A stretch of DNA of 64,000 nucleotides, from NCBI GenBank assembly GCA_010015805.1, contig ML978131.1, positions 186,001 to 250,000 of the forward strand, given 5' to 3'. Below the pieces are notes generated by a model, which had not been told where the DNA came from, made no database searches, and saw only the letters and a list, made by a program, of their open reading frames with translations. The stretch is from Rhizodiscina lignyota. Taxonomy: Eukaryota. A program made the position numbers and the translations under genes. Every line of letters starts with the position of its first letter. Within the stretch, counting starts at the first letter, position 1. Below, one piece after another: positions 1-60,833 of this stretch.

Positions 1-697
1 CCCCTATGTGGAGAGCCCGCACTTTCGAGGGCGGGAACGTCGTTGGTTTCAAAATGACGTCGCGATTCCAACTGTATGTCCTTGTATTGAAAATACAAGA
101 AAGTGAGGAGAAAAAGTATCACACACACGAAGAGAACCAAGACCACGACTTCAGTAAAGGAGCTATCTAATTCGGTAACGACGCGTTCAGGGGCCATGAA
201 GCTGTTGCTTTGCAATTGTCGAAACCTGAGGGGTAGAAAGGTATGCAATGCTCTCGAGAATGCGCAGGAAGACCGTGTTATATATACTGACACGGTGCAA
301 GGGCCACGTTCATCACCAGCAGGCCTTAACCGCCTGTACGACGATGGGCATGACGCTCGACGAGCACAGTGCTATTCACGTTCAAATGACACTATCAAAA
401 GCACGAGGTGAAGGAATTTATGGCAGGATTTGTTGAGAAAGATCATGTGCAGGGTTTCTGATGGATATCAAGTCATATGATATGTAAGTAATGTCACATA
501 GAATAAAACCTTCCATAAATTGTTCCAACGCCGCTGCCCATGGACTCTACAGTTTTCCCCTTGCCCTACACGGTGAAGAATATCCTCCGCTAAAAGTACA
601 TGCCCAGACTCGTGCCTTGGTCACAATGCCAGCTAAATCATCGCCGGAAATGTCCCACCAGCCCTTCTAATTGGTGATCAAGTCCGCGCCGTTCTGC

Positions 698-1243
698 TTA
701 AGTGACGGCTCCATTCCCACGAGGAGCACCGGCATCCGCGCGATCCATAGCCGCCTTCAGTTCCAGTTGTGCAATCTCCAACTGGCTGCTCAGGAAGCGG
801 ATTTCCTCAAATTTAGCACGGATCTCCGGAGTAATCGGTCGCGTTGACACACTGCCGCTGACGCGGGAATTGCCACCAGCCATTTGCCCATCGATGCGAG
901 AGCCGCGCTTAAGCAGGTCGAGGACTTCGAAGGTCGCATCTTTTCGAATTGCCTCCATGGCGGGATTGGCCCAGATCGAGACCATGCGGCTGTAGAGCGT
1001 CTGCTCTGTTGGTGAGAGACGCTCATGTCGGTCCGTTTTCGGCTTTATCAGCATGGCGATGGCCATGGCGTAGAAGACATCGAATGCTTCGGTTGTGCTC
1101 TCGGAGTCATTGTTCGCAGTAGAAGATGCGCTGTGCTGTGCGGAAGATGCGATGCTCGGTGGATAAGATGCACCGCTCGATGGGTAAGCACCTCTCGGCA
1201 GATATGAATGACCACCTGTTGATCGGGAGTAGAAGCTCGACAT
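698..1243 (-). CDS. Orphan protein (~181 aa), member 1 of a local paralogous family
   Basis: Single-exon ORF from ATG 1243 (MSSFYSRS...); TATAAA-like box ~90 bp upstream; motif LSPTEQTLYSRM and C-terminal helix EIAQLELKAA. Confidence 0.6.
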   Translation of the reverse strand: MSSFYSRSTGGHSYLPRGAYPSSGASYPPSIASSAQHSASSTANNDSESTTEAFDVFYAMAIAMLIKPKTDRHERLSPTEQTLYSRMVSIWANPAMEAIRKDATFEVLDLLKRGSRIDGQMAGGNSRVSGSVSTRPITPEIRAKFEEIRFLSSQLEIAQLELKAAMDRADAGAPRGNGAVT

Positions 1244-1639
1244 TATGTTCGATGAGTTCTTTGGAGACCAGGTGTGCAGATGTAGTTGGAAGAGTGTGTT
1301 CAATCGCCAACCGAGCAGGCCGGTATGGCTTTATATCCTGTGATCTGACCCGTTGTCAATGGCTCTTGTCGGACTCGGCAAACTTGATGTGTTTTGTACT
1401 CTGTACAACATCTCCTTCACCACCAGTATATCCGAATCGGATAATCCTTGTGGGCGCTTGTAGCAAATGATACACAGGCGCTAAATGAGCTCATTTTCAG
1501 GTTACCCAATTTATAGAATTTGAATCGACCGAAAAGCAGTACTGCTAAATCACGAACATGAATTGACATCGACCATTTTCCGATGATCAACGACTCCATC
1601 ATACCGATTGATGAACACAGCCCGTAGATATTACTACTA

Positions 1640-2665
1640 TCAACCCTGACCCCAACCAGAGTCCCAGCCCCAGCGGCCCCAACCTGGGCCAAAAGCGGAC
1701 CATTCAATGCCAGTCCCGCCATTGTTATTCCTGCCAGGTGATCGTCCCCCTTGAGTTCGTGCCCCTCTGCCCTGCTGAGAAGCACCTCCAGCATTCTGAG
1801 AAATCCGTCGAGACTTGGCCCTGACACGTTTATTTTCTTGCTGGGCTTCTCGAAGTTGTAACTGAGCAGCCCGACGCTCATGACGCACGCGTTGTAAGTC
1901 CCTCCTCATCTGTGCCAGTTCGGCTAGCAAGTGATCCACCAATGGGCCTCCCCACGCTGGGGTTCTTTCGCGCTCATGATGATGGCCAAGACCACGTGTC
2001 GAGGCTCGCCCTTGAACTCGCTGCATCCTAGATTCAAACCATTCATAGCGTTGAAGCATATGCTCCAAACTCCGCTGTAGTCTTGTCGTACCAGCTTCAG
2101 CTCTCTCATGCACTTGATCCGTGTGCTGTTGGTGCTCTGTCATGCGAGCGCCAGGCCATTGGAATTGTCGTTCCATGTCCTCCAAGTGTCGCTGAAATTC
2201 GGTAATAACCCGAGGATCGAGAGTCTGAGGAGTTTGACTATTGCCTTCGCTGGCTGCAGCTGCAGCCTTTTGCACGTTTTTATCATTGTCTACATCTTCT
2301 TCGATGATAGAGGCTTCTGGAGTGAGTTGCTGCAAGTCTTCAAACACCATGGTGGCTTCGCTGGACACAGACTCTGCTCCAGGAGATATTGGTCGAAATT
2401 CTAGGTCTCCAGATCGATACTGAGTCGCCGCACTAGACTCCGCGACTTCATTGTCGTAGCGTTGGTGTATGTGAGCATACAGATCTTGCTCTTCTTTTGT
2501 GAGGGCAGTATTCTTGCCCTTATCTTCAAGTCGCTGTCGTATGCTTTCCAAGACCAGGGTCGGATATTGTTTAAATATTTTGTGGGCAAGCTTCCTTGAC
2601 GGTTCGGATTTGTCGGAGACATCAGAGTTGGGTGCTCCGACAGGTTCGGGAGATTTTTGGTCCAT
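1640..2665 (-). CDS. Orphan coiled-coil protein (341 aa) with Gly/Trp-rich tail, family member 2
   Basis: 1-kb uninterrupted ATG ORF; motifs LTKEEQDLYAHI and ELAQMRRDLQRVR; ends WSAFGPGWGRWGWDSGWGQG. Confidence 0.7.
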   Translation of the reverse strand: MDQKSPEPVGAPNSDVSDKSEPSRKLAHKIFKQYPTLVLESIRQRLEDKGKNTALTKEEQDLYAHIHQRYDNEVAESSAATQYRSGDLEFRPISPGAESVSSEATMVFEDLQQLTPEASIIEEDVDNDKNVQKAAAAASEGNSQTPQTLDPRVITEFQRHLEDMERQFQWPGARMTEHQQHTDQVHERAEAGTTRLQRSLEHMLQRYEWFESRMQRVQGRASTRGLGHHHERERTPAWGGPLVDHLLAELAQMRRDLQRVRHERRAAQLQLREAQQENKRVRAKSRRISQNAGGASQQGRGARTQGGRSPGRNNNGGTGIEWSAFGPGWGRWGWDSGWGQG

Positions 2666-3071
2666 TGCGGCCGGGAATATTGTTCGCGTTATAAAGCTTT
2701 AGTAATAGATTGCAATAGTTGCGAGATTGAGTTATCCAAGGAAATCCGAGAGTCTGTCTCCATCAAGAAGGATCGAGGAGTGGAGAGAGAGGAGGAGGAT
2801 GCTGGCTATTTATGTAACCTGCGGGCAGTTGAATCATTTTTAAGCGCCGAAGAAGAGTCCCACAAAATCCACCTGACATTCAACGCCATATGAATCTTGC
2901 TCAAGTGATTTCGGAAGCGAGCGCGTGTAACGTTGAATCGTGAGTCATGATACCACCTCGCTATATGATTGAATGAAAACTAGTAGACCCTAAGCGATGC
3001 GCGTTAAGTGGTGGGTAGAGAAACAAGTGGTCATTTTTACTCACAGAATAGAAATCGGATCACAGGACTTA

Positions 3072-4651
3072 TCAGAAAAAGCCTCTCAGTATATTGGTTT
3101 GATAGACCAAAAAGTCTTCAGCCCAAACAAGCTGGCTAATAATAGCCAGCAGTGCTTCAAAGCTTACAATATTTTCAGCGGCCAAGACCTCACGAGAAAT
3201 CTCGGCGAACCAGTTCCGTTCTGCTGGGATATGCTCCGCTGAGGATGCAGTAGACAAGATCCAAACCAGTAATCTCGGCGGAGCTTCCTGTCTGAGTGAT
3301 GAAAACATCAAGAGGGTGCGAAGTTTTGCGCCGTACACAGGATCTGCAGAAAGTGTGTCGACGCCAAATTTGGCTCTAAGGCTGCTGACGTAGAGGATTG
3401 CGGCCAGCCTGAAAGCCTCTAGCATTACAGAGGCAATGTCTTCGTAATCGACCTCTACGCGCATGGCCAAGAGGTCCCCGAGAACTGGGGACAGGTGGAA
3501 CCCAGGGAAGAGAGGGTCATCCCATAGATGGCGTTTCCTTCTTTCAGCTCGCATGATATCTTGCACCTCTTGTAGCTCTGAACAAAATCCGGAGATTAGC
3601 CGGGCTATCAGTGTCTCGCTGGGAGCTTGAGAGAGAACTGCATCATCTCTAAAGCTAGGCCTGGGAAGTAGATGCTCGGGTTTGGGAAATCGGGGTGCCA
3701 CATCTTGCAGAACAGCCCCATTGATATCTGCCCTGCAAGCGAGAATCATCAGAAACCCTACATGGACAGGAATATGAGTTACGTACCAATAGAGTACCGT
3801 CCTGAGTGTATAATTTGAATCCAACGTATGGACGCCTCCCCTTCCCTCTATGAGCAACTTCAATCCATTCATATGGATTGTCAAGGACTCGGTATCGTGA
3901 AGAAGATTCTGACTAGTTGAGCACCGGATGAAGCAAGACTTAATGATTACTTACTGCACAGCAGGCGAATACAAGAACTGCACCTATAGCATCATCCGTG
4001 CTCGATTCCCTTGGGTTACCGATTTGATTTTGCAGCTGCTGTGTTGCAGTCAAATTGTATCCCAGGTGCTCTGTCGTCCGTTCGTCTCGGTTCAAATGTG
4101 ACAAATGCCATGAAGCCATTGCAAGTAATTGAGAAAAAGCAAGGGTTGCTCGAACTCGGTTCAAAAATCCGATGTTCCTCATGATTCGAAACATGACGCA
4201 AGTTTCATCGTAGACTATTCACCAATTAGAAGCTTCAGCCTTCTCGCGACAACGATGTATTTCACTCACGATGATCATAGAGCTCACGTTCGCGGTGACC
4301 CATACTGACTGGGTACTTGAAAAATGGGTCTAATCGACTGACACTGAGAGGCGTTGTCGGGCTTGGGGGTGTTGCTTCCCCTTCAGCCTTGCGCTCAGCA
4401 CTGGAAGTGCGACCGTTGGACTCCGCTGTTCTCTGCAGCAGAGGGCTAATATCCAATTCGATTTCATTTTTCCTTCGCTTGGGCAACTCTGAACGTCCAT
4501 GAAAATCTCGCATAGCCTGGCTCCTCACACGTTGTCGATTTGCCGCTGACCGTGCCATATTCGGATTAGTATATGTGATGAACTCTAGCGTCCTTCTCGC
4601 CCCACGAGCACGACCGAGGGGTAAGGAACCGGAAGATGCCTGGCTATCCAT
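3072..4651 (-). CDS. Fungal-specific transcription-factor-like protein (ACR-2-related type) lacking a Zn cluster, multi-exon
   Basis: ATG 4651 (MDSQASS); motifs RVRSQAM, SRLDPF, IHMNGLKLLIEGRGG; ORFs 4262-4840, 3940-4194 and 3072-3884 joined by short GT-AG introns. Confidence 0.75.
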
Positions 4652-5229
4652 TCTTGGGATTTTCTGGATACAGATTATATCCTGGATCTGCAAGACGCAA
4701 TTTCTGGGTGAAACGAATGCAGGTGGATAGGGCGTCAGTGATTGCCGGGATATGTCGAGCCCGGGAGACGCGAGAAAGGTCTCAAGGGTGTTGATGAGGA
4801 GCGCTGGAGGAAGAGCCGACTTGATTGGGTATTTTGTCAACAGTGAAGAGTTGTTCCAAGGGGATCAGACTGGCATCAGGCTGTGATTTACAGCTCTTTG
4901 TGCTGCCCATGTTGCGCTAAGCCTATTATAGCAAACGTACCGCCCATGTTCTTGCATTAGCGCTAATCCCAAATTTCCCAGGGGTCCTTGCTTATATGAA
5001 CGACGTCTGTACAAAAGCCCTCGATGGCTATTCTCTTTCGTGCTGTAGTCCACACTTACTAATGACGCTTTATCTAACGTGGGATGACAAACAAAGTCTA
5101 GTTAGAGCCTTGTCACCGTATCATGCCCACGCGTCACCTGAATTCGAAGTATCAACAGTCCAGTAGTCTGTTCTGGTAGGAAGATGTCGCAGGCAAAATC
5201 TAAGAAGTCTCATACCATTCATCATTATA

Positions 5230-6219
5230 CTAATAGCCCATGACAACTATTTTCCCATTTGCCCGACCTTCTTCCACCATGCGGTGCGCTTCACGAATCT
5301 GGTCGAAAGAAAACGTCTTTGTTGGTTTGGCATTCAGCTTCCCATCTGTGGCCAATTGAACGATGTCGCGAATGGGGACATCCGAGACCGGGAAAGCCGG
5401 TTGCCCAAAGTCAGGGCTTCTGAAGAGACTGAAATGGACCCCACCTGACATCTGGAGTAAAGGGTTGAAGTCCGAAATAGGCGCAAGACCACCCAACCAC
5501 CCTGCAAGACAGAGTCGACCTCCACGGCGGACAAGTGTCAGAGAATCCAGCAGCACACTATTCCCAATAAGGTCAAGAACAGCGTCGAATTTATCCTCCA
5601 ATCGAAGATTCAATCGCTTTGAGAGATCTGGCCCTTCCTGCTCGACCTTTTCGACCCCCAAAGTCAGAAGATCTTGATGACGATCGGCATTTCGAGTGGT
5701 TCCAACGACCCTGACTCCGTGGTTCACCGCAAGATTGACAGCTGCTTTGCCTAGGGCAGAAGTAGCGCCTCGAATCAGGAGGGTCTGGCCTTTCTGGATT
5801 TCGAGGTTTCGGAAGAGAGAGCTCCATGCTGTAGCATAAGACTCTGGAATGGCCGCGAGTTGATCCCAAGGTAATGGAGGTTCATTTGAGCCGAGGGAGA
5901 CCACATTTCCGACGGAAGCATTCGTGTATTCTGCGTAGCTCCCGTTAATTGTTCGCCCCAGCCCGCCCATGAGTGCGACTACTGCTGTTCCAAGTTCGAA
6001 TTCTCCTCCGGGACATGCCTCGACAATCCCCACGCACTCAACGCCACTGATTGGCATCCATTCTGCCCATTCACCCTTTCTCATGTGCATCTCTGCATGG
6101 TTTATCCCGAAGGCCTTCACTCTGATCAGAGCAAAGCCTGCTTTGGGTTCTGGTTTGTCGACGTCCTTAATGACGAGAACATCTGGATTGCCAAACTTCT
6201 CAATAACGATAGCTTTCAT
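5230..6219 (-). CDS. Medium-chain reductase, quinone oxidoreductase-like (NADPH), intronless
   Basis: ATG 6219 MKAIVIEKFGNPDVL; VKAFGINHAE, GSYAEY, LIRGATSALG, EAHRMVEEGRANGKIVV. Confidence 0.92.
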   Translation of the reverse strand: MKAIVIEKFGNPDVLVIKDVDKPEPKAGFALIRVKAFGINHAEMHMRKGEWAEWMPISGVECVGIVEACPGGEFELGTAVVALMGGLGRTINGSYAEYTNASVGNVVSLGSNEPPLPWDQLAAIPESYATAWSSLFRNLEIQKGQTLLIRGATSALGKAAVNLAVNHGVRVVGTTRNADRHQDLLTLGVEKVEQEGPDLSKRLNLRLEDKFDAVLDLIGNSVLLDSLTLVRRGGRLCLAGWLGGLAPISDFNPLLQMSGGVHFSLFRSPDFGQPAFPVSDVPIRDIVQLATDGKLNAKPTKTFSFDQIREAHRMVEEGRANGKIVVMGY

Positions 6220-6870
6220 GGCCAATGTAGACTGATTGGGAAAAAAAATGGAGGAAATACAAATATGCTTTTCAGCGAAAATACAATTTCGAATTGCAGA
6301 ACGAAAAATGCTCGCAGAGCTTGCTATGAATATATACTTACCGATGAATAATGGCTGATTGCCCGCCTGTACTCTTCCTTGCTCCAATGTCCATGGTTCT
6401 CTGCATGGTTGGGCAAATCGGATGATGAATGCGAAATATTCCGAAAGCCTGATGCAATGAATGCAAGTGCGTTATCCATATCAGGTCTAGTGGGCATGTT
6501 GTGACTGACTCTTTCCCAGGACTGCTCGAGAATAAGCGAGCTTATGAATGTATTACTTATTGTAGAAGAACACATTTCTGTTTTTGATGACATTACATGA
6601 GGCTCTCTTAACAACCTGGAGGTGTGCCGAGAAAAGCTTATCTATTACTGAAGCAGATCATTACCATGGGTCTACTTCAGATGTGCGCTTGACATAGAAC
6701 TGAATAGTGGCAGTAAGAAGATGTGACAGCAATGTACCAATCTCCACAGTCTTCCCTTAGTTCCTAAAGACCGCTTTCAGTCCTGCAACGCCAGCAAATG
6801 TAACGGCTAAAACGGCCAGCAACCAACACAAGGAAAGAGGTGTAGACTTCGTTTCGTTGCTCTTATTGTC

Positions 6871-7278
6871 CTAGAAAATATAGTCAGCAAGAAACTTTCG
6901 AAGCTTATGGGGAAAAGGTTTTCCAACCTTCTTTCCCTGTAGCTCAGCACATTTCTCGACACTGCGCCTCAGATTTCCGAGCATCCGACGGATTTCAGCG
7001 AGCTCAGGGCTTTGAGCAGCATTCCGAACATGATCGATTGCTTGAAGTAACGCAGGGTAGCCGCTTTCATTCGGTCCCGGAGGATGTGTGTAGAAGTAAT
7101 CCTGAATGCGATCATAGAGCTGCAATTCTTGCGAGGTGACCGAATAAGAAAGATACTTCGGTTTGGGTGTTCGGCTCGCCAGATTGAGGATTGATGCGAG
7201 CTCATCTTGACCAACTTCTTTAGCAAGAGCATTAAGTGCTTCTCTCAATACGCGGGTCCGCTCGAGCTTTTGATCCAT
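6871..7278 (-). CDS. Orphan protein (135 aa), family member 3
   Basis: ATG ORF with VTSQELQLYDRIQDYFY and ELAEIRRMLGNLRR. Confidence 0.6.
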   Translation of the reverse strand: MDQKLERTRVLREALNALAKEVGQDELASILNLASRTPKPKYLSYSVTSQELQLYDRIQDYFYTHPPGPNESGYPALLQAIDHVRNAAQSPELAEIRRMLGNLRRSVEKCAELQGKKVGKPFPHKLRKFLADYIF

Positions 7279-7653
7279 TGGTAGAGCCTATTTTGTGTGG
7301 GAAATATAGAGGTCTTAAGCTTAAGCAGTATATGGGAGATGTTACAGTATTGCGTACCGATACAAATGGTTTGTGATATGAACAAAGAGATCCAAGAAGT
7401 ATCCTGAAAACAGCTACAACGATTTAAATAGTCGCTAATGACGCCAGTTTTAACTTTTTCTTCAAGTGATCATACACTTCACATTGTTGTGTTACCTTTC
7501 TGAGCCGCGCAATTTCAACAGAATCTATCACCCATCGCAACACCAAGTCTAATGATAAATGGGCCGCTAACACGAGGATATTTTCTTTTTTTGCTGACCT
7601 CTTTCTTACTCTCTTCGGTGGCACGGTCTCCTTCGTAGTAACACGATTCCCAG

Positions 7654-8003
7654 TTAGACGTCTAAGTTCATCGGTTGGCGAAGACCCGTGAATTCAACCT
7701 GCTGCCCGGCTTTGATGTCATATAGCCATATCACTGCCCGGGGCAAGATCGAATCTCTTCTACTAACCCGGGGTGGTGAGCGCACGTAAAAGTGGCTGCA
7801 GATATGGTCGTAAAAGTGCCGTTCTTGAGGCGCCATCGGACTATATCAGTTTAGAGGACACGGATGCTGCTCGAATTCGCCGAGATCTTCAAAAGCGCTT
7901 GTACTGCGAGAGCATGTTCCTCCATCGCGTCGGCTTGGTCCTGCAGTGCTCCAGCTTGCTCTGTGTGGCCTATTACTTGCACTCCTGTCACGTATGGGTT
8001 CAT
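7654..8003 (-). pseudogene. Disrupted paralog of 6871-7278 (family member 4)
   Basis: ATG 8003 frame (MNPYVTG...AVQALLKISANSSSIRVL*) stops at ~7851; a different frame continues PQERHFYDHICSHFYVRSPP, matching SQELQLYDRIQDYFYTHPP. Confidence 0.5.
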
Positions 8004-8240
8004 TGTTCATAGTGGCATACGGTACGCCGAGCGCTGTTTGCGAAATATCAGTTGCAGTAAAGAGATGTGAAGACGAGAATCTGAAACCATGAGAGATTCC
8101 TGAACTTGTTCAAATACTTGAAAGAGCTAAATTAGCCACAACTCATAACCCGTTCTCATGTGAGCGCCACCCGGCCAGTCCTGCGAAAGTAGTGTAATAC
8201 TATGCAATACGGTAAGCCATGGATATCCCGACTTTCCAGT

Positions 8241-11200
8241 CTATAGACTTTCACTGCTGTCGCCGTCACCAGCATCCTTCTTCTCAAAGGGGAATAGCAG
8301 CTCCTTCCGCGCCCGATGGAATTTTTCCAGGCAATCCCTCCTTTGTGCTTGCGTCCACCCTTCGACAACCAGCGCAAATTCGGTCACATTCTCAAACCCA
8401 AAGTGCTTAGCCATGCTGCAAAACTGTCTCCTCTTGACATCTTCTGGTGGGTTGTATTTCCAGCTGACGTTTCGCAAACCGTCGGGGCCATCGCTGGGCG
8501 GAGCTGGTGCATAAAATGGCGCCTGCTGTGAGTCGGAGAAGATCTTCTCGCCAATTGTTTCGACGTCGCCGGTACGCTCGACAGCCGCGCGGGAAAGTTT
8601 TGACTCGATCTTGGAAGTGCCAATCACTTCGGAATTCTCATGAGTGTAGCTGACCCCGGCGCCTGCAAGGATCGCCTGCACGGCGTCAGTCTTGCTCTTC
8701 GCCTTTGCCCGTTTCTTGGACTTCTGGTTATCGTCTTCTCCTGTAATTATAGCAGTAAGTTTTACCATTGCTGCATTCTCATCGTTATCGTCGCCTCGGA
8801 TAATGTCGTCTTGATCGCCTTCGGGGTCATCTTGACTCATGTCAATATCTGCCACTAACACGCCTGCGCGCGACTCCGCTATATTGGTCTTGTTCACAAT
8901 TTCCCGCAGCACGACGTTGTCAGGTTGGTACGAGAACATATTCTTGAGGCCAAAGATTTCACCCTTCTTCTGCGATTCATCCTGCACACCACGAAAGTAG
9001 CGTCTTTCGAGACTCGCATTGTAACCGATATTTGCCTGTTGCTGCTTGTAGATTTGTCTCGCATATACAATCTCCTCAATCGTGCCAGCGCTAATAAGCC
9101 GGAAGACCTCAACATCTCGGGTCTGGCCAATACGGTAGGCACGATCTTGGGCCTGTAGGTCATAACTGGGGTTCCAATTCGGGTCGACAACGACAACCTT
9201 GTTTGCGGAAGTAATATTCAGGCCCACGCCTCCAGCTCTGGTACTGATGAGGAAAATGAATTGGTTAGGATCAGCGTTGAAGTCGTCAACTATTTGAGAG
9301 CGATCGTTTAGGGGCACATTGCCGTCAAGATATGAGACATTGTAAGACGTTGTGGATTTGAGGAGCAATTCTAGCATCCGCAACAGCCGAACAGAGTGGC
9401 TGAAGATGAGGACTTTGTTTGGCACGCTGTTCGATGGATTGTCATACCAGTATCGAAGTAATTTTCTAAGAGGCTTCCATTTGCCGCATAACTCTTCATT
9501 TGCAAAATGCATGATCGAATCCTTCTGGCGGTATAAGTTCGTCCACTCGTTGGGTAGCGCGAGCTGCAAATTCTCCAGATCTTTTGTTTGCTTCTCCTGA
9601 AGATCTTCGCTCCTTGGGATGAGCAGTGCAACATGGTTCGCAATCTTCTGCAACGTAACGATGCATGGAAAGACGAGGGCTTTCCAACTGCTGCCATCCT
9701 CGAGTTGAGCGCCACAACACCATCCCCGCTTTTTTCCGGATGCGCAAGGACACATGTCTGTGGAAGTAATGATAGCTTCAATCGCTTCACCGTCCAGGAT
9801 GCGCAGATATGCTTCGGTTTGTATCTCTGTCAGAGGGCAGAAAACGATGCGATCACTCTTTTTGGGAAGCTGGTCCGCAATGAGTGTCTTCATACGGCGG
9901 AGGAAGAAACGCGGGAGGAGATGATCAACGAGCTTCTTTGCCGTCTTGCGCGCGACACCAAGCTGTTCCATGGTACAATCATGAGCCTGGCCCATTTTCA
10001 GAGGATTGCTGATGCACTGCTTCCAGCTTCCAACAGACCCAAATCGCCCGGGATTAGCCCAGTTGAGCAGTGTCCACAGCTCTTCGTAGTTGTTTTGAAT
10101 AGCGGTTCCAGTAAGGCCAATTCGACAGAGGGCATTAATCCCATTCATGGCTCTCGTTGTCTCTGCTCTCCAGCCCTTGATCTGGTGGCACTCATCGGCG
10201 ATAACGCAATCCCAATCGATTAAGTTGATTTCGCTCGCATGATTCCTATAAGTCGCATACGTTGTGATCATGATCTCCACTCGGCCATTTGCTGCAGCCT
10301 TAAGCGCATCTGCCTTGCTGTTGGGATCTCCGTGGAATACATAAATGTGCCACCAGCCCCAGCGTCGCAGCTCAGATTGCCAGTTGGCCATTAACGTTCC
10401 CGGGCAAATGATCAACACTCGAGGATACCATTGGTCATCTGATGCTCTGCGCACCTTGCGCATGCGTTTACGGTCCCGTTCATCGCCCGTCTTGCCGAAT
10501 GCAGCCGTCAAAAATCCAATGACCTGAATCGTCTTCCCTAAACCCATGTCGTCACCCAAGATACATCCACGTTGGTAGACAAAACTCTCATGAAGGAATG
10601 CAACTCCCTCAACTTGATAGTCCCGGAGCCATTGTGCGATTGATGCAGGTATGAGACCTGCGGAGTATTGCAGGGTGATGTCTTCGTACGGGGTACACGG
10701 TTTGAGATGAGGCAGAACAGGCCTTTCTTGAAGATCCCCAAGTCTCTCATCATCGGAAAATTCGATATCATCGTATCTTGGAGGCAACTTCAGGCCCGCC
10801 TCGCCAAGCTTCTTTTGAATCTTTTCGAATTTAGTCTTTCTGGTTTTCACATAGTCCGGTAGCACTTCATCAGGCAGCTGATCAGAATCGGAATCTGTGG
10901 CGTAGGTGTTGTAACTTTTGAGTTTAGGCGTCTGCCCTTTTGAGCCTGCCGTTCGCTTTCCGGGACGTTTCCCAACCACGCTCGGCGCGGTCTTCTGCTT
11001 CTTCACAGGTGCAGGACGCTTTCCCTTGGCCACCGTGCGCGTCTTTTTCGAGTTGGCTACAGTGTCTATGTCGTCATCATCATCAGACCACTCAATCTTC
11101 GTTCCTTCCGACGCATGATCATGCATTCGGGTCCACCGGCGCTTTCGATTTTTCGTCATACCATCCTCGGTACGGGAGCTTTCTGTCTCATCTCCGACGA

Positions 11201-11324
11201 CGTCTTGGATGTAGCTGTCAAGGCCTAATTCTTTTTGTACGACCTTCGTGATGTCGAGGTCGCTATCCTCGTCCTCGCCTTCTATGATATCAATCGTGCG
11301 ACTAACCGTTTGGAAACGCGACAT
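8241..11324 (-). CDS. ERCC6L2: SNF2-family helicase, ERCC6L2/Rad26-like DNA repair protein
   Basis: LGDDMGLGKT, DECH, LTGTAIQNN, STRAGGVGLN, QAQDRAYRIGQ; C-terminal YTHENSEVIGTSK (VIGSSK-type) motif; first ATG 11324. Confidence 0.92.
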   Translation of the reverse strand: MSRFQTVSRTIDIIEGEDEDSDLDITKVVQKELGLDSYIQDVVGDETESSRTEDGMTKNRKRRWTRMHDHASEGTKIEWSDDDDDIDTVANSKKTRTVAKGKRPAPVKKQKTAPSVVGKRPGKRTAGSKGQTPKLKSYNTYATDSDSDQLPDEVLPDYVKTRKTKFEKIQKKLGEAGLKLPPRYDDIEFSDDERLGDLQERPVLPHLKPCTPYEDITLQYSAGLIPASIAQWLRDYQVEGVAFLHESFVYQRGCILGDDMGLGKTIQVIGFLTAAFGKTGDERDRKRMRKVRRASDDQWYPRVLIICPGTLMANWQSELRRWGWWHIYVFHGDPNSKADALKAAANGRVEIMITTYATYRNHASEINLIDWDCVIADECHQIKGWRAETTRAMNGINALCRIGLTGTAIQNNYEELWTLLNWANPGRFGSVGSWKQCISNPLKMGQAHDCTMEQLGVARKTAKKLVDHLLPRFFLRRMKTLIADQLPKKSDRIVFCPLTEIQTEAYLRILDGEAIEAIITSTDMCPCASGKKRGWCCGAQLEDGSSWKALVFPCIVTLQKIANHVALLIPRSEDLQEKQTKDLENLQLALPNEWTNLYRQKDSIMHFANEELCGKWKPLRKLLRYWYDNPSNSVPNKVLIFSHSVRLLRMLELLLKSTTSYNVSYLDGNVPLNDRSQIVDDFNADPNQFIFLISTRAGGVGLNITSANKVVVVDPNWNPSYDLQAQDRAYRIGQTRDVEVFRLISAGTIEEIVYARQIYKQQQANIGYNASLERRYFRGVQDESQKKGEIFGLKNMFSYQPDNVVLREIVNKTNIAESRAGVLVADIDMSQDDPEGDQDDIIRGDDNDENAAMVKLTAIITGEDDNQKSKKRAKAKSKTDAVQAILAGAGVSYTHENSEVIGTSKIESKLSRAAVERTGDVETIGEKIFSDSQQAPFYAPAPPSDGPDGLRNVSWKYNPPEDVKRRQFCSMAKHFGFENVTEFALVVEGWTQAQRRDCLEKFHRARKELLFPFEKKDAGDGDSSESL

Positions 11325-11601
11325 GTTGGTAGCGTTCTTGGTGTTTTCGCATGTTATTGATGAAGTCAAGCTTCGAAGATTTATAAGAAGACCGAAGAAG
11401 CGCGTTTTTAAGGTGTCCTTGATGAGTGTTGCTGATGATGAACGTGAAGGTAGTTGAAGTGGGGCAATCCAAACGCGAGGTCAAAAAGCGCGACACGAAG
11501 TCACGTGAGCCACTCTACCTCGTTGCAGTGTCGCCAAGGATCCGCATTCAAGTTGCGTGCTCTTCAGCTGAGCCTCTGTAACTACTCAATTGAGGCCCGA
11601 A

Positions 11602-12501
11602 ATGCCTCTCGATACCTCCACCTACTCCCTCGCACTCCTCCGCCTCGACGGTAGAAGATGGAACGAGCTTCGCCGGATCCACGCCCAAATTTCTACCCAA
11701 GCTGCCGCAGATGGATCGAGCTACCTAGAAATGGGCAACACAAAGGTCATCTGCACAGTGGCTGGTCCAGCAGAGGGTAGAAGAGGTGCTGTAGGAGGCG
11801 GTTCGCAGAGCGAGATGAGGATAGAGGTAGAAATCAATATTGCAGGTTTCGCTGGCGTTGAGAGAAAGAAGAGGAGTAGAGCAGACAGGTGAGCAAAATA
11901 TATCACCATGTTTTCCAGCCTTCCGTGTGAAAAATTCAGATGATACGAGTACTAATCATGCCTCTACAGGAGAAACGCAGAGCTCTCACACACCGTCCAA
12001 TCGGCCCTCGAGTCCACCCTTCTCACCCACCTTTACCCCCATAGCACCCTCACTCTCACATTGCATATCCTTGCCCAAGACGGCGCTCTCCTCGCCGCAT
12101 GTATCAATGCTGCCACTCTCGCGCTCGTTGACGCTGGCGTACCTATGTACGACTACCTGGTCGCCTGCTCAGCAGGCAGCACATCTGCCTCAGCGGCAGC
12201 ACCACCTTCATCATCTGCAATACCAGGACTAGGAGGCATTGGTGGGAACAGAAGTGTGGGTGCAGACGCAGACGATCCGCTGCTGGACCTAAATGGGCTG
12301 GAAGAGCAGGAACTCCCGTACCTGACGGTTGGGACACAAGGAGATAGCGACAAGGTCGTCGTATGTGTTATGGAGACCAGGTGTCATGCGAGCAGGCTAG
12401 AGGAGATGCTCGCTGTAGGCATTGATGGGTGTAAGAGGGTCAGGGAGATACTGGACGGGGTAGTGAGGGCACACGGGAAGAAGATGATTGAGAACGAGTG
12501 A
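11602..12501 (+). CDS. RRP41: Exosome core subunit Rrp41/Ski6 (RNase PH domain), intron 11889-11969
   Basis: RLDGRRWNELR, ADGSSYLEMGNTKV, LAACINAATLALVDAGVPM, DPLLDLN.LEE. Confidence 0.93.
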
Positions 12502-59966: not shown

Positions 59967-60833
59967 ATGAGTGCAAATCACTCAAGGTTGGACTGTGCCG
60001 ACGAGAAGCAGTCCTTCGATAAATCACACACACATCATTTCGGTGGCCGTTGTGACAGTTCTCACGCAGATAAACCCCGGGAATTGTATCCCTAAAGATT
60101 TCCATCTCCGATATGGCTGGATTATGGCTGCGATGATGAAGACCTCGAGACCGGAGGATACAACGGTTTCTACCATGTCCGATGCCCAGGTTCATTCACT
60201 CCATGTCCACATGGCTGTGGCCGCTACGCCTCCCATATCGACTCCATAGTCGTCGCAGCCGACGGTGCCTGTCCTAAAAATGGAATGGATGCCAACACCT
60301 CGGCCGTTGGCGTTTACTTTGGATGGGGCACGCCATCTCGAAATCGTACACTCCGAATCCGCAGCGACCCACGATATGCGCACACAAGCCAGCGGGCCGA
60401 GCTGCACGCTGCGCTTGCTGCGTTGCGGCTATCGAAAACGTACGCACGAGACGGCGGGCAGTGGAATTGCCATCACAAGCGTCCACACGCTCCTAGCTGT
60501 CGCGTACAACATCTGGTGATTAAATCAGACTCTGCGTATCTCGTCAACTCAATGACAAAGCACATCCACAAGTGGCGTGCCAACGGATGGATGACGGCGA
60601 AAAAGACTCCGGTCAGCAATCACGATCTCTTCGTCAAACGGATGGAGGAAGTGGAGGGCCTTGAGAAACTTTTGACGGCTGTGGACTTCTGGCTTGTGCC
60701 GCGGGAGTTGAATGCTGATGCGGATCGACTCGCGAAGGAGGGTCTCAGATCTTCCCGTTTTATAGATGAGGAAGAAAGGAGCTTTGAAGACTGTACCGCC
60801 GAGCTCAGTTCATTCCGGCTCCGAAATGGATGA
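59967..60833 (+). pseudogene. RNase H1-like gene with one in-frame TAA (60093-60095)
   Basis: One frame from ATG 59967; IVVAADGAC, SQRAELHA, IKSDSAYLV, W..NGW, NADADRLA all lie downstream of the stop. Confidence 0.7.

What the first reader, a model, noticed from the sequence alone, without database searches (positions are those of the whole stretch)
698..8003. Array of four divergent orphan paralogs: a candidate undescribed fast-evolving gene family
Seen: four intronless minus-strand ORFs I cannot assign share a motif: LSPTEQTLYSRM (698-1243), LTKEEQDLYAHI (1640-2665), VTSQELQLYDRI (6871-7278), MAPQERHFYDHI (7654-7836). Second-site matches: ELAQMRRDLQRVR (ORF2) vs ELAEIRRMLGNLR (ORF3); EIAQLELKAA (ORF1) vs RAAQLQLREA (ORF2); RPITP (ORF1) vs RPISP (ORF2). 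ORF4 is broken by a stop and frameshift, and a TF-like plus quinone reductase pair splits the array. Inference: local birth-and-death with extreme divergence, the pattern known from fungal conflict loci (meiotic-drive poison/antidote, allorecognition). RIP would also favour survival of only highly diverged copies. Function is unknown.
Basis: partly seen in the sequence, partly recalled or inferred. Interest (0 to 1): 0.72.

Follow-up and report, generated by a model that had tools for sequence, protein, structure and literature searches.

The report
Real but ancient fungal orphan family
Four neighbouring genes of a wood-dwelling fungus are probably very old, very diverged relatives sharing a small three-helix protein module that also occurs in three genes elsewhere in its genome; one copy is broken, and nothing yet shows that they form a poison-antidote or self-recognition system.

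Summary
It is the third helix of an unnamed ~55-residue three-helix module. The module is clear in ORF2, a stop-broken paralog on contig C12, two double-module genes 0.8 Mb along C11 and one unnamed public protein. ORF4 is a decayed copy of ORF3. Corrections: ORF3 is probably spliced and ends in a membrane-anchor-like helix; the second-site matches look like chance; the family is not confined to this array; there is no RIP signature. No Pfam, HET or NLR match. Best reading: an old lineage-restricted family grown by head-to-tail duplication and loss, as described for Neurospora orphans, whose module is a docking unit carrying different tails. The function is inferred; a conflict role is untested. 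New member of a known kind.

The parts
698..1243 (-). ORF1, 181 aa: Ser-rich N-terminus, remote copy of the module (helices 2-3 only recognisable), short helical C-terminal part
   Evidence: exact sequence is a public gene model; profile tests; pairwise tests
983..1018 (-). ORF1 motif LSPTEQTLYSRM (residues 76-87) = start of module helix 3
1640..2665 (-). ORF2, 341 aa: module, low-complexity linker, Arg/Gln/Glu-rich predicted coiled-coil region, Gly/Trp tail
   Evidence: homologous along its length to P0012
2435..2608 (-). ORF2 module (about residues 20-77), three predicted helices
   Evidence: 52% to the C12 paralog over residues 20-86, E 5e-12; 58% over 60 aa to P0012; AlphaFold2 mean pLDDT 83.8, pTM 0.60, three helices
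2468..2503 (-). ORF2 motif LTKEEQDLYAHI (residues 55-66)
1643..1708 (-). ORF2 C-terminal Gly/Trp tail (7 overlapping GW/WG dipeptides), matched by a like tail in P0012
3072..4651 (-).
   Evidence: the TF label is recalled resemblance only
5230..6219 (-). Intervening zinc-binding dehydrogenase / quinone-reductase-type gene, 329 aa
   Evidence: Pfam PF13602, PF00107, PF08240 above cut-offs
6928..7278 (-). ORF3 exon 1: module (about residues 11-62) and a helical hairpin
7105..7140 (-). ORF3 motif VTSQELQLYDRI (residues 47-58)
6871..6927 (-). Probable 57-nt intron of ORF3 (GTTGGA donor, GCTGAC branch-like site, TAG acceptor)
   Evidence: Public model P0013; pattern scan; no RNA evidence
6757..6870 (-). 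Probable ORF3 exon 2, 37 codons, ending in a hydrophobic helix (6766-6822; Kyte-Doolittle 19-mer mean 2.17) close to the C-terminus: tail-anchor-like
7629..8003 (-). ORF4: decayed paralog of ORF3, broken by a stop and frame changes; pieces 7851-8003 and 7654-7836; motif MAPQERHFYDHI at 7801-7836
8241..11324 (-). Flanking conserved gene: SNF2-family helicase with VIGSSK and ERCC6L2-type RHH domains (not part of the family)

Best explanation
SHOWN: the module in ORF2, the C12 paralog, P0012 and twice each in two genes at C11:1.00 Mb; decay of the C12 copy and of ORF4. PROBABLE (statistical): the module in ORF3 (about 0.85) and ORF1 (about 0.7); ORF4 joins through ORF3. INFERRED: the module is a non-catalytic protein-docking unit at the N-terminus of small intracellular adaptors, and the members differ in what they append to it: a coiled coil with a Gly/Trp tail (ORF2 type), a helical hairpin with a C-terminal membrane anchor (ORF3 type), a second module (C11:1.00 Mb pair), or a short helical tail (ORF1). 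Duplicates would then bring one kind of binding surface to different places in the cell, and are dispensable enough to be lost. I put the family claim at about 0.75 and the docking-adaptor mechanism, given the family, at about 0.6.
For: Local HMMER with seven units: ORF1 0 of 2000 shuffles, ORF3 9 of 2000. ORF1's best pairwise alignments with P0012, P0008 and P0009 pair the motifs. ORF3-ORF4: near-colinear DNA alignment over about 335 nt, transition-aware score 171 vs 124, sd 11 (1 of 500 shuffles, 1 of 378 real stretches); frameshift-aware protein score 50 vs 31 (0 of 150, 0 of 184). All six genes in arrays are head-to-tail. Adaptor inference: the module is small and all-helical; its invariant columns are Ala, Pro and Glu, without a set of catalytic-type residues; it stays conserved while everything behind it differs; no member has an obvious N-terminal signal peptide (by eye and by hydropathy maxima).
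Against: ORF1 and ORF3 share only 10-23% identity with the other units. Most single pairs are not significant: ORF1-ORF3 1335 of 2000, ORF2-ORF3 350 of 2000; ORF1 vs C12 584 of 1000, ORF3 vs P0008 465 of 1000. The six-unit HMM gave ORF1 only 6 bits (E 2 among 2913 pieces) and did not list ORF3 or ORF4 at E 20; the library-wide search returned 5 proteins at E 0.001 and neither ORF1 nor the ORF3 model among them. The ORF2-type profile alone does not single out ORF1 (37 of 300) and no profile singles out ORF4 (25, 71 and 187 of 300); eighteen profile-target tests were run. ORF1 lacks a recognisable helix 1 and has a competing register against ORF2 and C12. The plain DNA score for ORF3-ORF4 is not significant (269 of 500). 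In the ORF3 model the module part is unreliable (residues 18-47 under pLDDT 50), so a common fold was not shown. The adaptor role rests on anatomy alone.
Confidence: 0.45

Rival explanations
1. Only the ORF2-type and double-module genes form a family. ORF1 and the ORF3/ORF4 pair are unrelated orphans whose helix start (Ser/Thr-x-x-Glu capping box plus an amphipathic helix) converges on the same 12 residues.
For: Weak pairwise scores and 10-23% identity; HMMER misses; an unrelated neighbour has a look-alike 12-mer; helices 2-3 of the model overlay on unrelated helical hairpins such as YnzC (3bhp, Z 4.8, rmsd 1.5 over 41 residues). That the capping box is a common helix start is my own knowledge.
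Against: Four-way block far beyond both nulls; whole-module profile fits in the same register from seed sets that do not contain the tested ORF; motif pattern rare in control ORFs (2 loose and 0 strict hits in 16,536 aa); adjacency and common orientation.
Confidence: 0.2
2. One reading: a genetic-conflict family (spore-killer poison/antidote or allorecognition). The module would be the recognition surface between a membrane-inserting poison (ORF3 type) and soluble antidotes or decoys (ORF1, ORF2, double-module genes).
For: Copy gain and loss, two broken copies of seven; dispersed and clustered copies; one member with a probable membrane helix. wtf drivers vary in copy number and evolve fast (PMC6526906, abstract); Neurospora lineage-specific genes cluster with HET-domain genes (PMC10684091, abstract).
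Against: No Pfam family above its cut-off in any member; no HET, NACHT/NB-ARC or transposase family in the 54 ORFs scanned around the three loci (not an exhaustive gene list); no long repeat in 1-8300; no recent near-identical copies, which gene conversion in wtf families would leave (closest pair 52%); GC and dinucleotides like the rest of the window; the array sits between IMPDH and a SNF2 helicase. The same pattern is common among Neurospora orphans of no known conflict role (PMC2684829).
Confidence: 0.13
3. ORF2-type proteins are RNA-silencing adaptors: the Gly/Trp tail is an Argonaute hook, the coiled coil oligomerises, and the module docks a partner; tail-less paralogs compete for that partner.
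For: ORF2 and P0012 both end in a Gly/Trp tail with 7 overlapping GW/WG dipeptides and are homologous beyond the module (score 113; 0 of 1000 shuffles, 4 of 1000 block shuffles); a third gene on C7 shares coiled coil and tail with P0012 (0 of 1000 both nulls). GW/WG repeats mediate Argonaute binding from fission yeast to mammals (PMC2965232, abstract).
Against: The tail is about 22 residues, found in one of the four window genes; Gly/Trp-rich ends have other uses (membrane interface, aggregation; own knowledge); the C7 tail mixes Tyr and Trp; composition bias inflates these scores (block shuffles raise the null from 47 to 74).
Confidence: 0.08
4. The module is a degenerate HMG box (or other small DNA-binding three-helix domain) that lost its signature residues.
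For: hhalign of seven units against 12 HMG-box pieces of this genome aligns 51 columns in a sensible register, score 13.7, 1 of 300 column shuffles, E 0.04 for the single comparison; SRY and Sox2 are among the weak Foldseek rows (E 3.8-7); language-model neighbours of P0009 are HTH/transposase clusters at 0.77-0.78 (below the tool's own bar).
Against: hhalign probability 1.3%; the nine units score -10 to -26 on the HMG profile, background mean -21, true boxes left out 17-55; the helix-2 Trp present in 9 of 10 HMG rows that cover it is missing in all seven units; no HMG family in Pfam scans to E 10; TM-score 0.27, rmsd 10 to SRY.
Confidence: 0.06
5. The ORFs are mostly non-functional decaying sequence; only some are still genes.
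For: Two of seven copies are broken; each protein looked up is a singleton cluster from one contig.
Against: Long intact frames despite 10-58% identity between copies; strong conservation of the ORF2 module in an outside protein (58% over 60 aa); coding-type GC by codon position in ORF2 and ORF3 (0.65/0.47/0.45 and 0.62/0.38/0.44, like the dehydrogenase 0.63/0.42/0.50).
Confidence: 0.08

Closest known systems
Lineage-specific (orphan) tandem paralog families of filamentous ascomycetes, as described for Neurospora crassa (PMC2684829)
   Same: Adjacent, head-to-tail, very diverged paralogs without annotation or RIP traces. In N. crassa 82 of 250 orphan-orphan pairs were adjacent, 73 of the 82 head-to-tail, mean identity 36.1%, no RIP traces (section 7 read).
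   Different: Here the shared part is one 55-residue module with unlike tails, identity is lower for ORF1 and ORF3 (10-23%), one homolog exists outside the genome (P0012), and a subtelomeric position is not shown (187-194 kb into a 1.11-Mb contig).
Fungal killer meiotic drivers and allorecognition genes (wtf, Spok, rfk-1/rsk, het/HET-domain and NLR genes)
   Same: Multi-copy, diverged, with broken copies; one member may be membrane-bound.
   Different: No sequence or domain match; no near-identical recent copies; no HET/NLR/transposon neighbours among ORFs scanned; wtf proteins have several membrane helices and Spok is a large nuclease-kinase protein (both recalled), unlike these 154-341 aa proteins.
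HMG box (Pfam PF00505)
   Same: About 55-70 residues, three helices, an Asn-Pro at the end of helix 1 in some copies, similar start of helix 3.
   Different: No Pfam match, no helix-2 Trp, background-level profile scores.
GW/WG Argonaute-hook proteins (GW182, Tas3)
   Same: Several GW/WG dipeptides in a low-complexity tail (ORF2, P0012).
   Different: Very short tail, no other shared domain, absent from ORF1, ORF3, ORF4 and the double-module genes.
Disordered septal-pore proteins (SPA/SPP; PMC10023807, passages read)
   Same: Lineage-restricted, partly disordered, Arg-rich and Lys-poor (ORF2 beyond the module: Arg 12%, His 4%, Lys 2%).
   Different: ORF2 is Gly-rich (10%), which those proteins avoid according to the paper; no sequence link was tested.

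Membership tests
Lineage-specific tandem orphan family (Neurospora type) | No recognisable homolog or domain outside the lineage | tested here: met
   ORF2, ORF3, P0009 searches return only the genome's own proteins (near lengths only); the six-unit profile finds 5 of 1.84 billion representatives, 4 from this genome and one unnamed; no Pfam above cut-off. ORF1 was not searched alone against the large collections.
Lineage-specific tandem orphan family (Neurospora type) | Adjacent head-to-tail paralogs of low identity | tested here: met
   ORF1/ORF2, ORF3/ORF4 and the C11:1.00 Mb pair are each adjacent and co-oriented; unit identities 10-47%.
Lineage-specific tandem orphan family (Neurospora type) | No RIP signature | tested here: met
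   Dinucleotide indices like the window average; the usual thresholds 0.89 and 1.03 are recalled.
Lineage-specific tandem orphan family (Neurospora type) | Subtelomeric enrichment | tested here: inconclusive
   Loci at 0.19 and 1.00 Mb of a 1.11-Mb contig and 0.35 Mb of a 0.91-Mb contig; contig ends are not known to be telomeres.
Spore killers / allorecognition genes (wtf, Spok, HET, NLR) | Family domain (Wtf, HET, NACHT, NB-ARC and the like) | tested here: not met
   Pfam scans of all members at E 1 or 10.
Spore killers / allorecognition genes (wtf, Spok, HET, NLR) | Clustered with HET/NLR genes or mobile elements | tested here: not met
   0 of 54 ORFs scanned hit HET, NACHT, NB-ARC or a transposase at E 0.001 (selection of long frames, not every gene); no long repeats in 1-8300.
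Spore killers / allorecognition genes (wtf, Spok, HET, NLR) | Toxicity with rescue; drive or incompatibility in crosses; polymorphism between isolates; expression in sexual stages | not testable with these tools
   One genome, no relatives held.
HMG box (PF00505) | Profile match | tested here: not met
   No Pfam hit to E 10; not among the 12 own-genome matches; background scores on an own-genome HMG profile; hhalign probability 1.3%.
HMG box (PF00505) | Conserved helix-2 Trp | tested here: not met
   Trp in 9 of 10 HMG rows covering the column, in 0 of 7 units.
HMG box (PF00505) | L-shaped three-helix fold | tested here: inconclusive
   Model from 7 sequences, pTM 0.60; SRY row at E 3.8, TM 0.27.
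GW/WG Argonaute-hook proteins | Multiple GW/WG dipeptides in a disordered region | tested here: met
   7 overlapping dipeptides each in ORF2 and P0012, 0 in the truncated C12 protein.
GW/WG Argonaute-hook proteins | Binds Argonaute | not testable with these tools
   No test run.
Tail-anchored membrane proteins (ORF3 only) | Single hydrophobic helix close to the C-terminus, no signal peptide | tested here: inconclusive
   Met by the spliced model P0013 (19-mer mean 2.17 at residues 134-152 of 154) but the splice has no RNA evidence.

The most novel reading that the evidence does not exclude
The module is an undescribed recognition domain at the core of a new kind of fungal conflict or surveillance system: a tail-anchored member (ORF3) acts at a membrane, while soluble members with the same module (ORF1, the double-module genes, and ORF2 with its coiled coil and Argonaute-hook-like tail) neutralise it or couple it to RNA silencing; copies turn over as pairs are gained and lost.
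Probability: 0.1. Interest if true: 0.8.

Novelty: new member of a known kind. Interest (0 to 1): 0.36.

Why it matters
It defines a small protein module that has no Pfam model and that five literature searches did not turn up, and it shows that genes filed as unrelated orphans in a poorly sampled fungal lineage can be traced to one family by walking through dispersed paralogs. That is useful annotation and a modest example of domain shuffling among orphans. It would matter much more if the membrane-anchored and soluble members proved to be a toxin-antidote set or the Gly/Trp tail an Argonaute hook; nothing here shows either, and the genomic pattern by itself is ordinary.

Tried and rejected
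Homolog searches: ORF2 (1 of 2774 candidates, itself), P0009 (1 of 333, itself), ORF3 (1 of 43, its own spliced model); only near lengths were searched. ORF2-type patterns in metagenome contigs (217 pattern matches, 0 confirmed) and viral contigs (124, 0 confirmed). ESM Atlas: no usable hit for ORF3; for P0009 best 0.81, HTH/transposase leads at 0.77-0.78, structure TM at most 0.35 by query. PDB by sequence profile: 2 rows at E 1.8 and 9.6. Fold searches: ORF2 module, 0 matches at E 0.001 in PDB and BFVD, best Z 5.0 of 48,161 chains; ORF3 model (mean pLDDT 59), 0 at E 0.001, best Z 7.2 on residues 46-120, generic helical bundles. These blanks show neither a new fold nor absence of kin. Homodimer prediction of the ORF2 module: no answer, score 0.05, alignment not used. 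Sequencing runs: one DNA holder, no RNA holder listed. Rfam: 0 matches in 1-12000. Repeats in 1-8300: only short chance-like families. ORF0 (orphan just left of the window, C11:185081-185905) tested as a fifth member and rejected: 87-102 of 300 shuffles, 594 of 2000, 136 of 1000 against ORF1. Weak own-genome hits L004, L011, L021, L022, L025, L026 (E 0.01-0.5) were read and showed no module (L025 and L026 by eye only); L047 (E 1.8) was not examined. An intron that would rescue ORF4 was looked for and not found. HMG-box origin considered and not supported. Earlier scan notes: none near the locus or by sequence. The genome cannot be searched with a profile, so the count of seven genes is a lower bound.

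Full report
Setting. The window is G000:C11:186001-250000 of a 33.4-Mb assembly in 33 contigs. A source label on a protein from the same contig names Rhizodiscina lignyota, a Dothideomycete of the order Aulographales, an order described as saprobic on leaves and wood (PMC7082219, passages read). The search tool holds no relatives of this genome. The array lies between an IMP dehydrogenase gene plus one more orphan ORF on the left and a SNF2-family helicase on the right.

1. The observation. All ORFs and motifs are at the stated coordinates. The four 12-mers are the best four-way ungapped block of these proteins, score 139, against a maximum of 110 in 300 shuffles (mean 80.5, sd 7.6) and 104 in 397 quartets from 18 unrelated ORFs. 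Pairwise support is much thinner. Of the pairs among ORF1, ORF2, ORF3 and the motif-bearing piece of ORF4, only ORF1-ORF2 and ORF3-ORF4b (each 6 of 2000 shuffles) stand out; ORF2-ORF3 (350), ORF1-ORF4b (828), ORF2-ORF4b (1207) and ORF1-ORF3 (1335) do not. The 'second-site' coiled-coil matches are therefore not evidence, and RPITP/RPISP belongs to a register that does not pair the motifs and is not kept in ORF2's close relatives. The intervening spliced gene has a similar 12-mer without the rest of the module, a warning that the 12-mer alone can converge. ORF4's break is present in a depth-157 contig of run X1 with 0 differences over 1-11765.

2. What it is. ORF2 finds a paralog at C12:346105 (52% over residues 20-86, E 5e-12). 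That paralog finds a gene at C11:1000605 (E 0.005), which carries the shared stretch twice and has a head-to-tail neighbour at C11:1001983 that also carries it twice (E 1e-17). The six units align over about 55 columns with invariant Ala, Pro and Glu. A profile of them scored against 1.84 billion cluster representatives returned 5 proteins at E 0.001: four from this genome and P0012, an unnamed 532-residue protein (E 1.4e-10) whose best match in G000 is 50-55% identical. P0012 has ORF2's layout: module (58% over 60 residues), linker, Arg/Gln/Glu-rich helical region and a Gly/Trp tail; the parts beyond the module align at score 113 (0 of 1000 shuffles, 4 of 1000 block shuffles), although BLASTP found nothing significant there. 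P0012 also aligns with the C12 copy across a TGA at codon 196 (score 116, 0 of 1000 in both nulls), so the C12 copy is truncated.

Do ORF1, ORF3 and ORF4 belong? I aligned whole-module profiles to each, with free ends in the target, against 300 shuffles and 300 segments drawn with replacement from 40 control ORFs (3 profiles by 6 targets, one parameter set). With only the four C11:1.00 Mb units: ORF2 0 and 0 of 300, ORF1 0 and 0, ORF3 7 and 1, ORF4 187 and 151. With the three ORF2-type units: ORF3 0 and 0 (31.0 vs 3.6, sd 5.6), ORF1 37 and 44, ORF4 25 and 27. With all seven: ORF1 1 and 0, ORF3 0 and 0, ORF4 71 and 63. The controls ORF0 and the neighbour's exon reached 36-215 of 300 shuffles (5-140 of 300 real segments). 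HMMER is less convincing: with seven units ORF1 0 of 2000 and ORF3 9 of 2000 shuffles, ORF4b 316; with six units ORF1 6 bits at E 2, ranked behind two unrelated pieces, and ORF3 and ORF4 unlisted. Identities of ORF1 and ORF3 to other units are 10-23%, and the ORF3 model is unreliable over the module. ORF4 is tied to ORF3 directly: transition-aware DNA score 171 vs 124, sd 11 (1 of 500 shuffles; 1 of 378 real stretches), frameshift-aware protein score 50 vs 31 (0 of 150; 0 of 184), but a plain match/mismatch score is not significant (269 of 500). I conclude ORF3 is likely a member (0.85), ORF1 probably (0.7), and ORF4 a decayed copy of ORF3 (0.85).

3. How it most likely works. Shown: a small helical module kept at the N-terminus while what follows differs among members; duplication in head-to-tail pairs at two places on C11, one dispersed copy, an internal duplication, and two broken copies among seven genes. 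Inferred: the module is a docking surface, since it is too small and lacks invariant residues of a catalytic kind, and the tails look like addresses: coiled coil plus Gly/Trp tail, helical hairpin plus membrane anchor, a second module. This adaptor reading is the most economical, but it rests on anatomy only (overall 0.45). Rivals: convergence of ORF1 and ORF3/4 on a common helix start (0.2); a poison/antidote or allorecognition family (0.13); Argonaute-hook adaptor (0.08); decaying non-genes (0.08); degenerate HMG box (0.06).

The conflict reading was tested as far as sequence allows. No member matches a Pfam family above cut-off. Of 54 long frames scanned around the three loci none hit HET, NACHT, NB-ARC or a transposase. 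There is no long repeat in 1-8300, no recent near-identical copy, and no RIP-type dinucleotide shift. What remains in its favour is turnover and one probable membrane helix. The HMG idea arose from weak Foldseek rows and a recalled resemblance; hhalign against 12 HMG pieces of this genome gave probability 1.3%, though 1 of 300 column shuffles, and the units score like background on that profile whereas left-out true boxes score 17-55.

4. Comparison with what is known. The closest kind is the lineage-specific tandem orphan family. In Neurospora crassa 82 of 250 orphan-orphan paralog pairs are adjacent, 73 of these head-to-tail, with mean identity 36.1% and no RIP traces (PMC2684829, passages and section 7 read). 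Neurospora lineage-specific genes often cluster with HET-domain genes (PMC10684091, abstract), which was not seen here. wtf drivers vary in copy number and undergo gene conversion (PMC6526906, abstract). GW/WG repeats bind Argonaute (PMC2965232, abstract). Septal-pore proteins are disordered and Arg/His-biased but Gly-poor (PMC10023807, passages). Other papers were seen only as search listings; none of these five searches listed a description of this module. No supplements were read; gene-family tables in genome papers might list these genes as a cluster. Unchecked earlier notes of this scan report several other old orphan paralog clusters in the same genome, which fits an isolated lineage but is not independent evidence.

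5. Novelty and verdict. The phenomenon is a known kind, the conflict interpretation has no positive support beyond turnover, and function is unknown by experiment. New member of a known kind; interest 0.36. The boldest reading not excluded, a new membrane-toxin/antidote or silencing-linked system built on this module, has probability about 0.1 and would deserve 0.8.

Noticed in passing
G000:C11:1000605-1001294 and 1001983-1002684 (L017:605-1294, 1983-2684, +): Two head-to-tail genes, each with two copies of the module preceded by a Pro-rich P-x-F/W-P-x-P-P-Y/F stretch; 33% identical to each other. The public model of the first (P0011) is spliced and ends in a moderately hydrophobic stretch (1.73).
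   Followed up: yes
G000:C12:346105-346900 (L003:1462 onward, +): ORF2-type paralog broken by in-frame stops at codons 196 and 266; annotated publicly as the truncated 195-aa protein.
   Followed up: yes
G000:C7:1457889-1458731 (L030:760-1923, +): Gene with a Gln/Met-rich coiled-coil region and a Gly/Trp/Tyr tail that aligns with the C-terminus of P0012 (score 107, 0 of 1000 in both nulls) and more weakly with ORF2 (45 of 1000 block shuffles); no module seen by eye; no Pfam match.
   Followed up: partly
G000:C11:185081-185905 (L008:9081-9905, -), just left of the window: A fifth co-oriented orphan ORF (275 aa) between IMPDH and ORF1; single copy, no Pfam, does not fit the module.
   Followed up: yes
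window 3072-4651 (-): Spliced gene with no Pfam match in three exon frames; its first exon ends in a DPF..P-type stretch that I recall from fungal-specific transcription-factor-like proteins, followed by the look-alike 12-mer. No Zn2Cys6 domain was detected.
   Followed up: partly
L007:5116-8734 (+), about 6 kb from the C12 paralog: An ankyrin-repeat gene with an N-terminal region that looks like an alpha/beta-hydrolase (recalled resemblance to SesB-like NLR effector domains, no Pfam hit for that part), followed by a CorA-like domain gene.
   Followed up: no
window 60096-60830 (+): RNase H domain ORF (Pfam E 4e-15), 52 kb from the array; not examined for host or transposon origin.
   Followed up: no
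window 11736-11858: Several short alternative contigs of run X1 with 1-2 differing letters meet here, suggesting a small repeat or variant site.
   Followed up: no
L008-L009 (C11:175364-176776) and L006 (C12:343424-345297): DUF3176-type or similar membrane-protein genes lie within about 10 kb of both the C11 array and the C12 paralog (Pfam DUF3176 hit only for the C11 one); whether this reflects shared ancestry of the regions was not tested.
   Followed up: no
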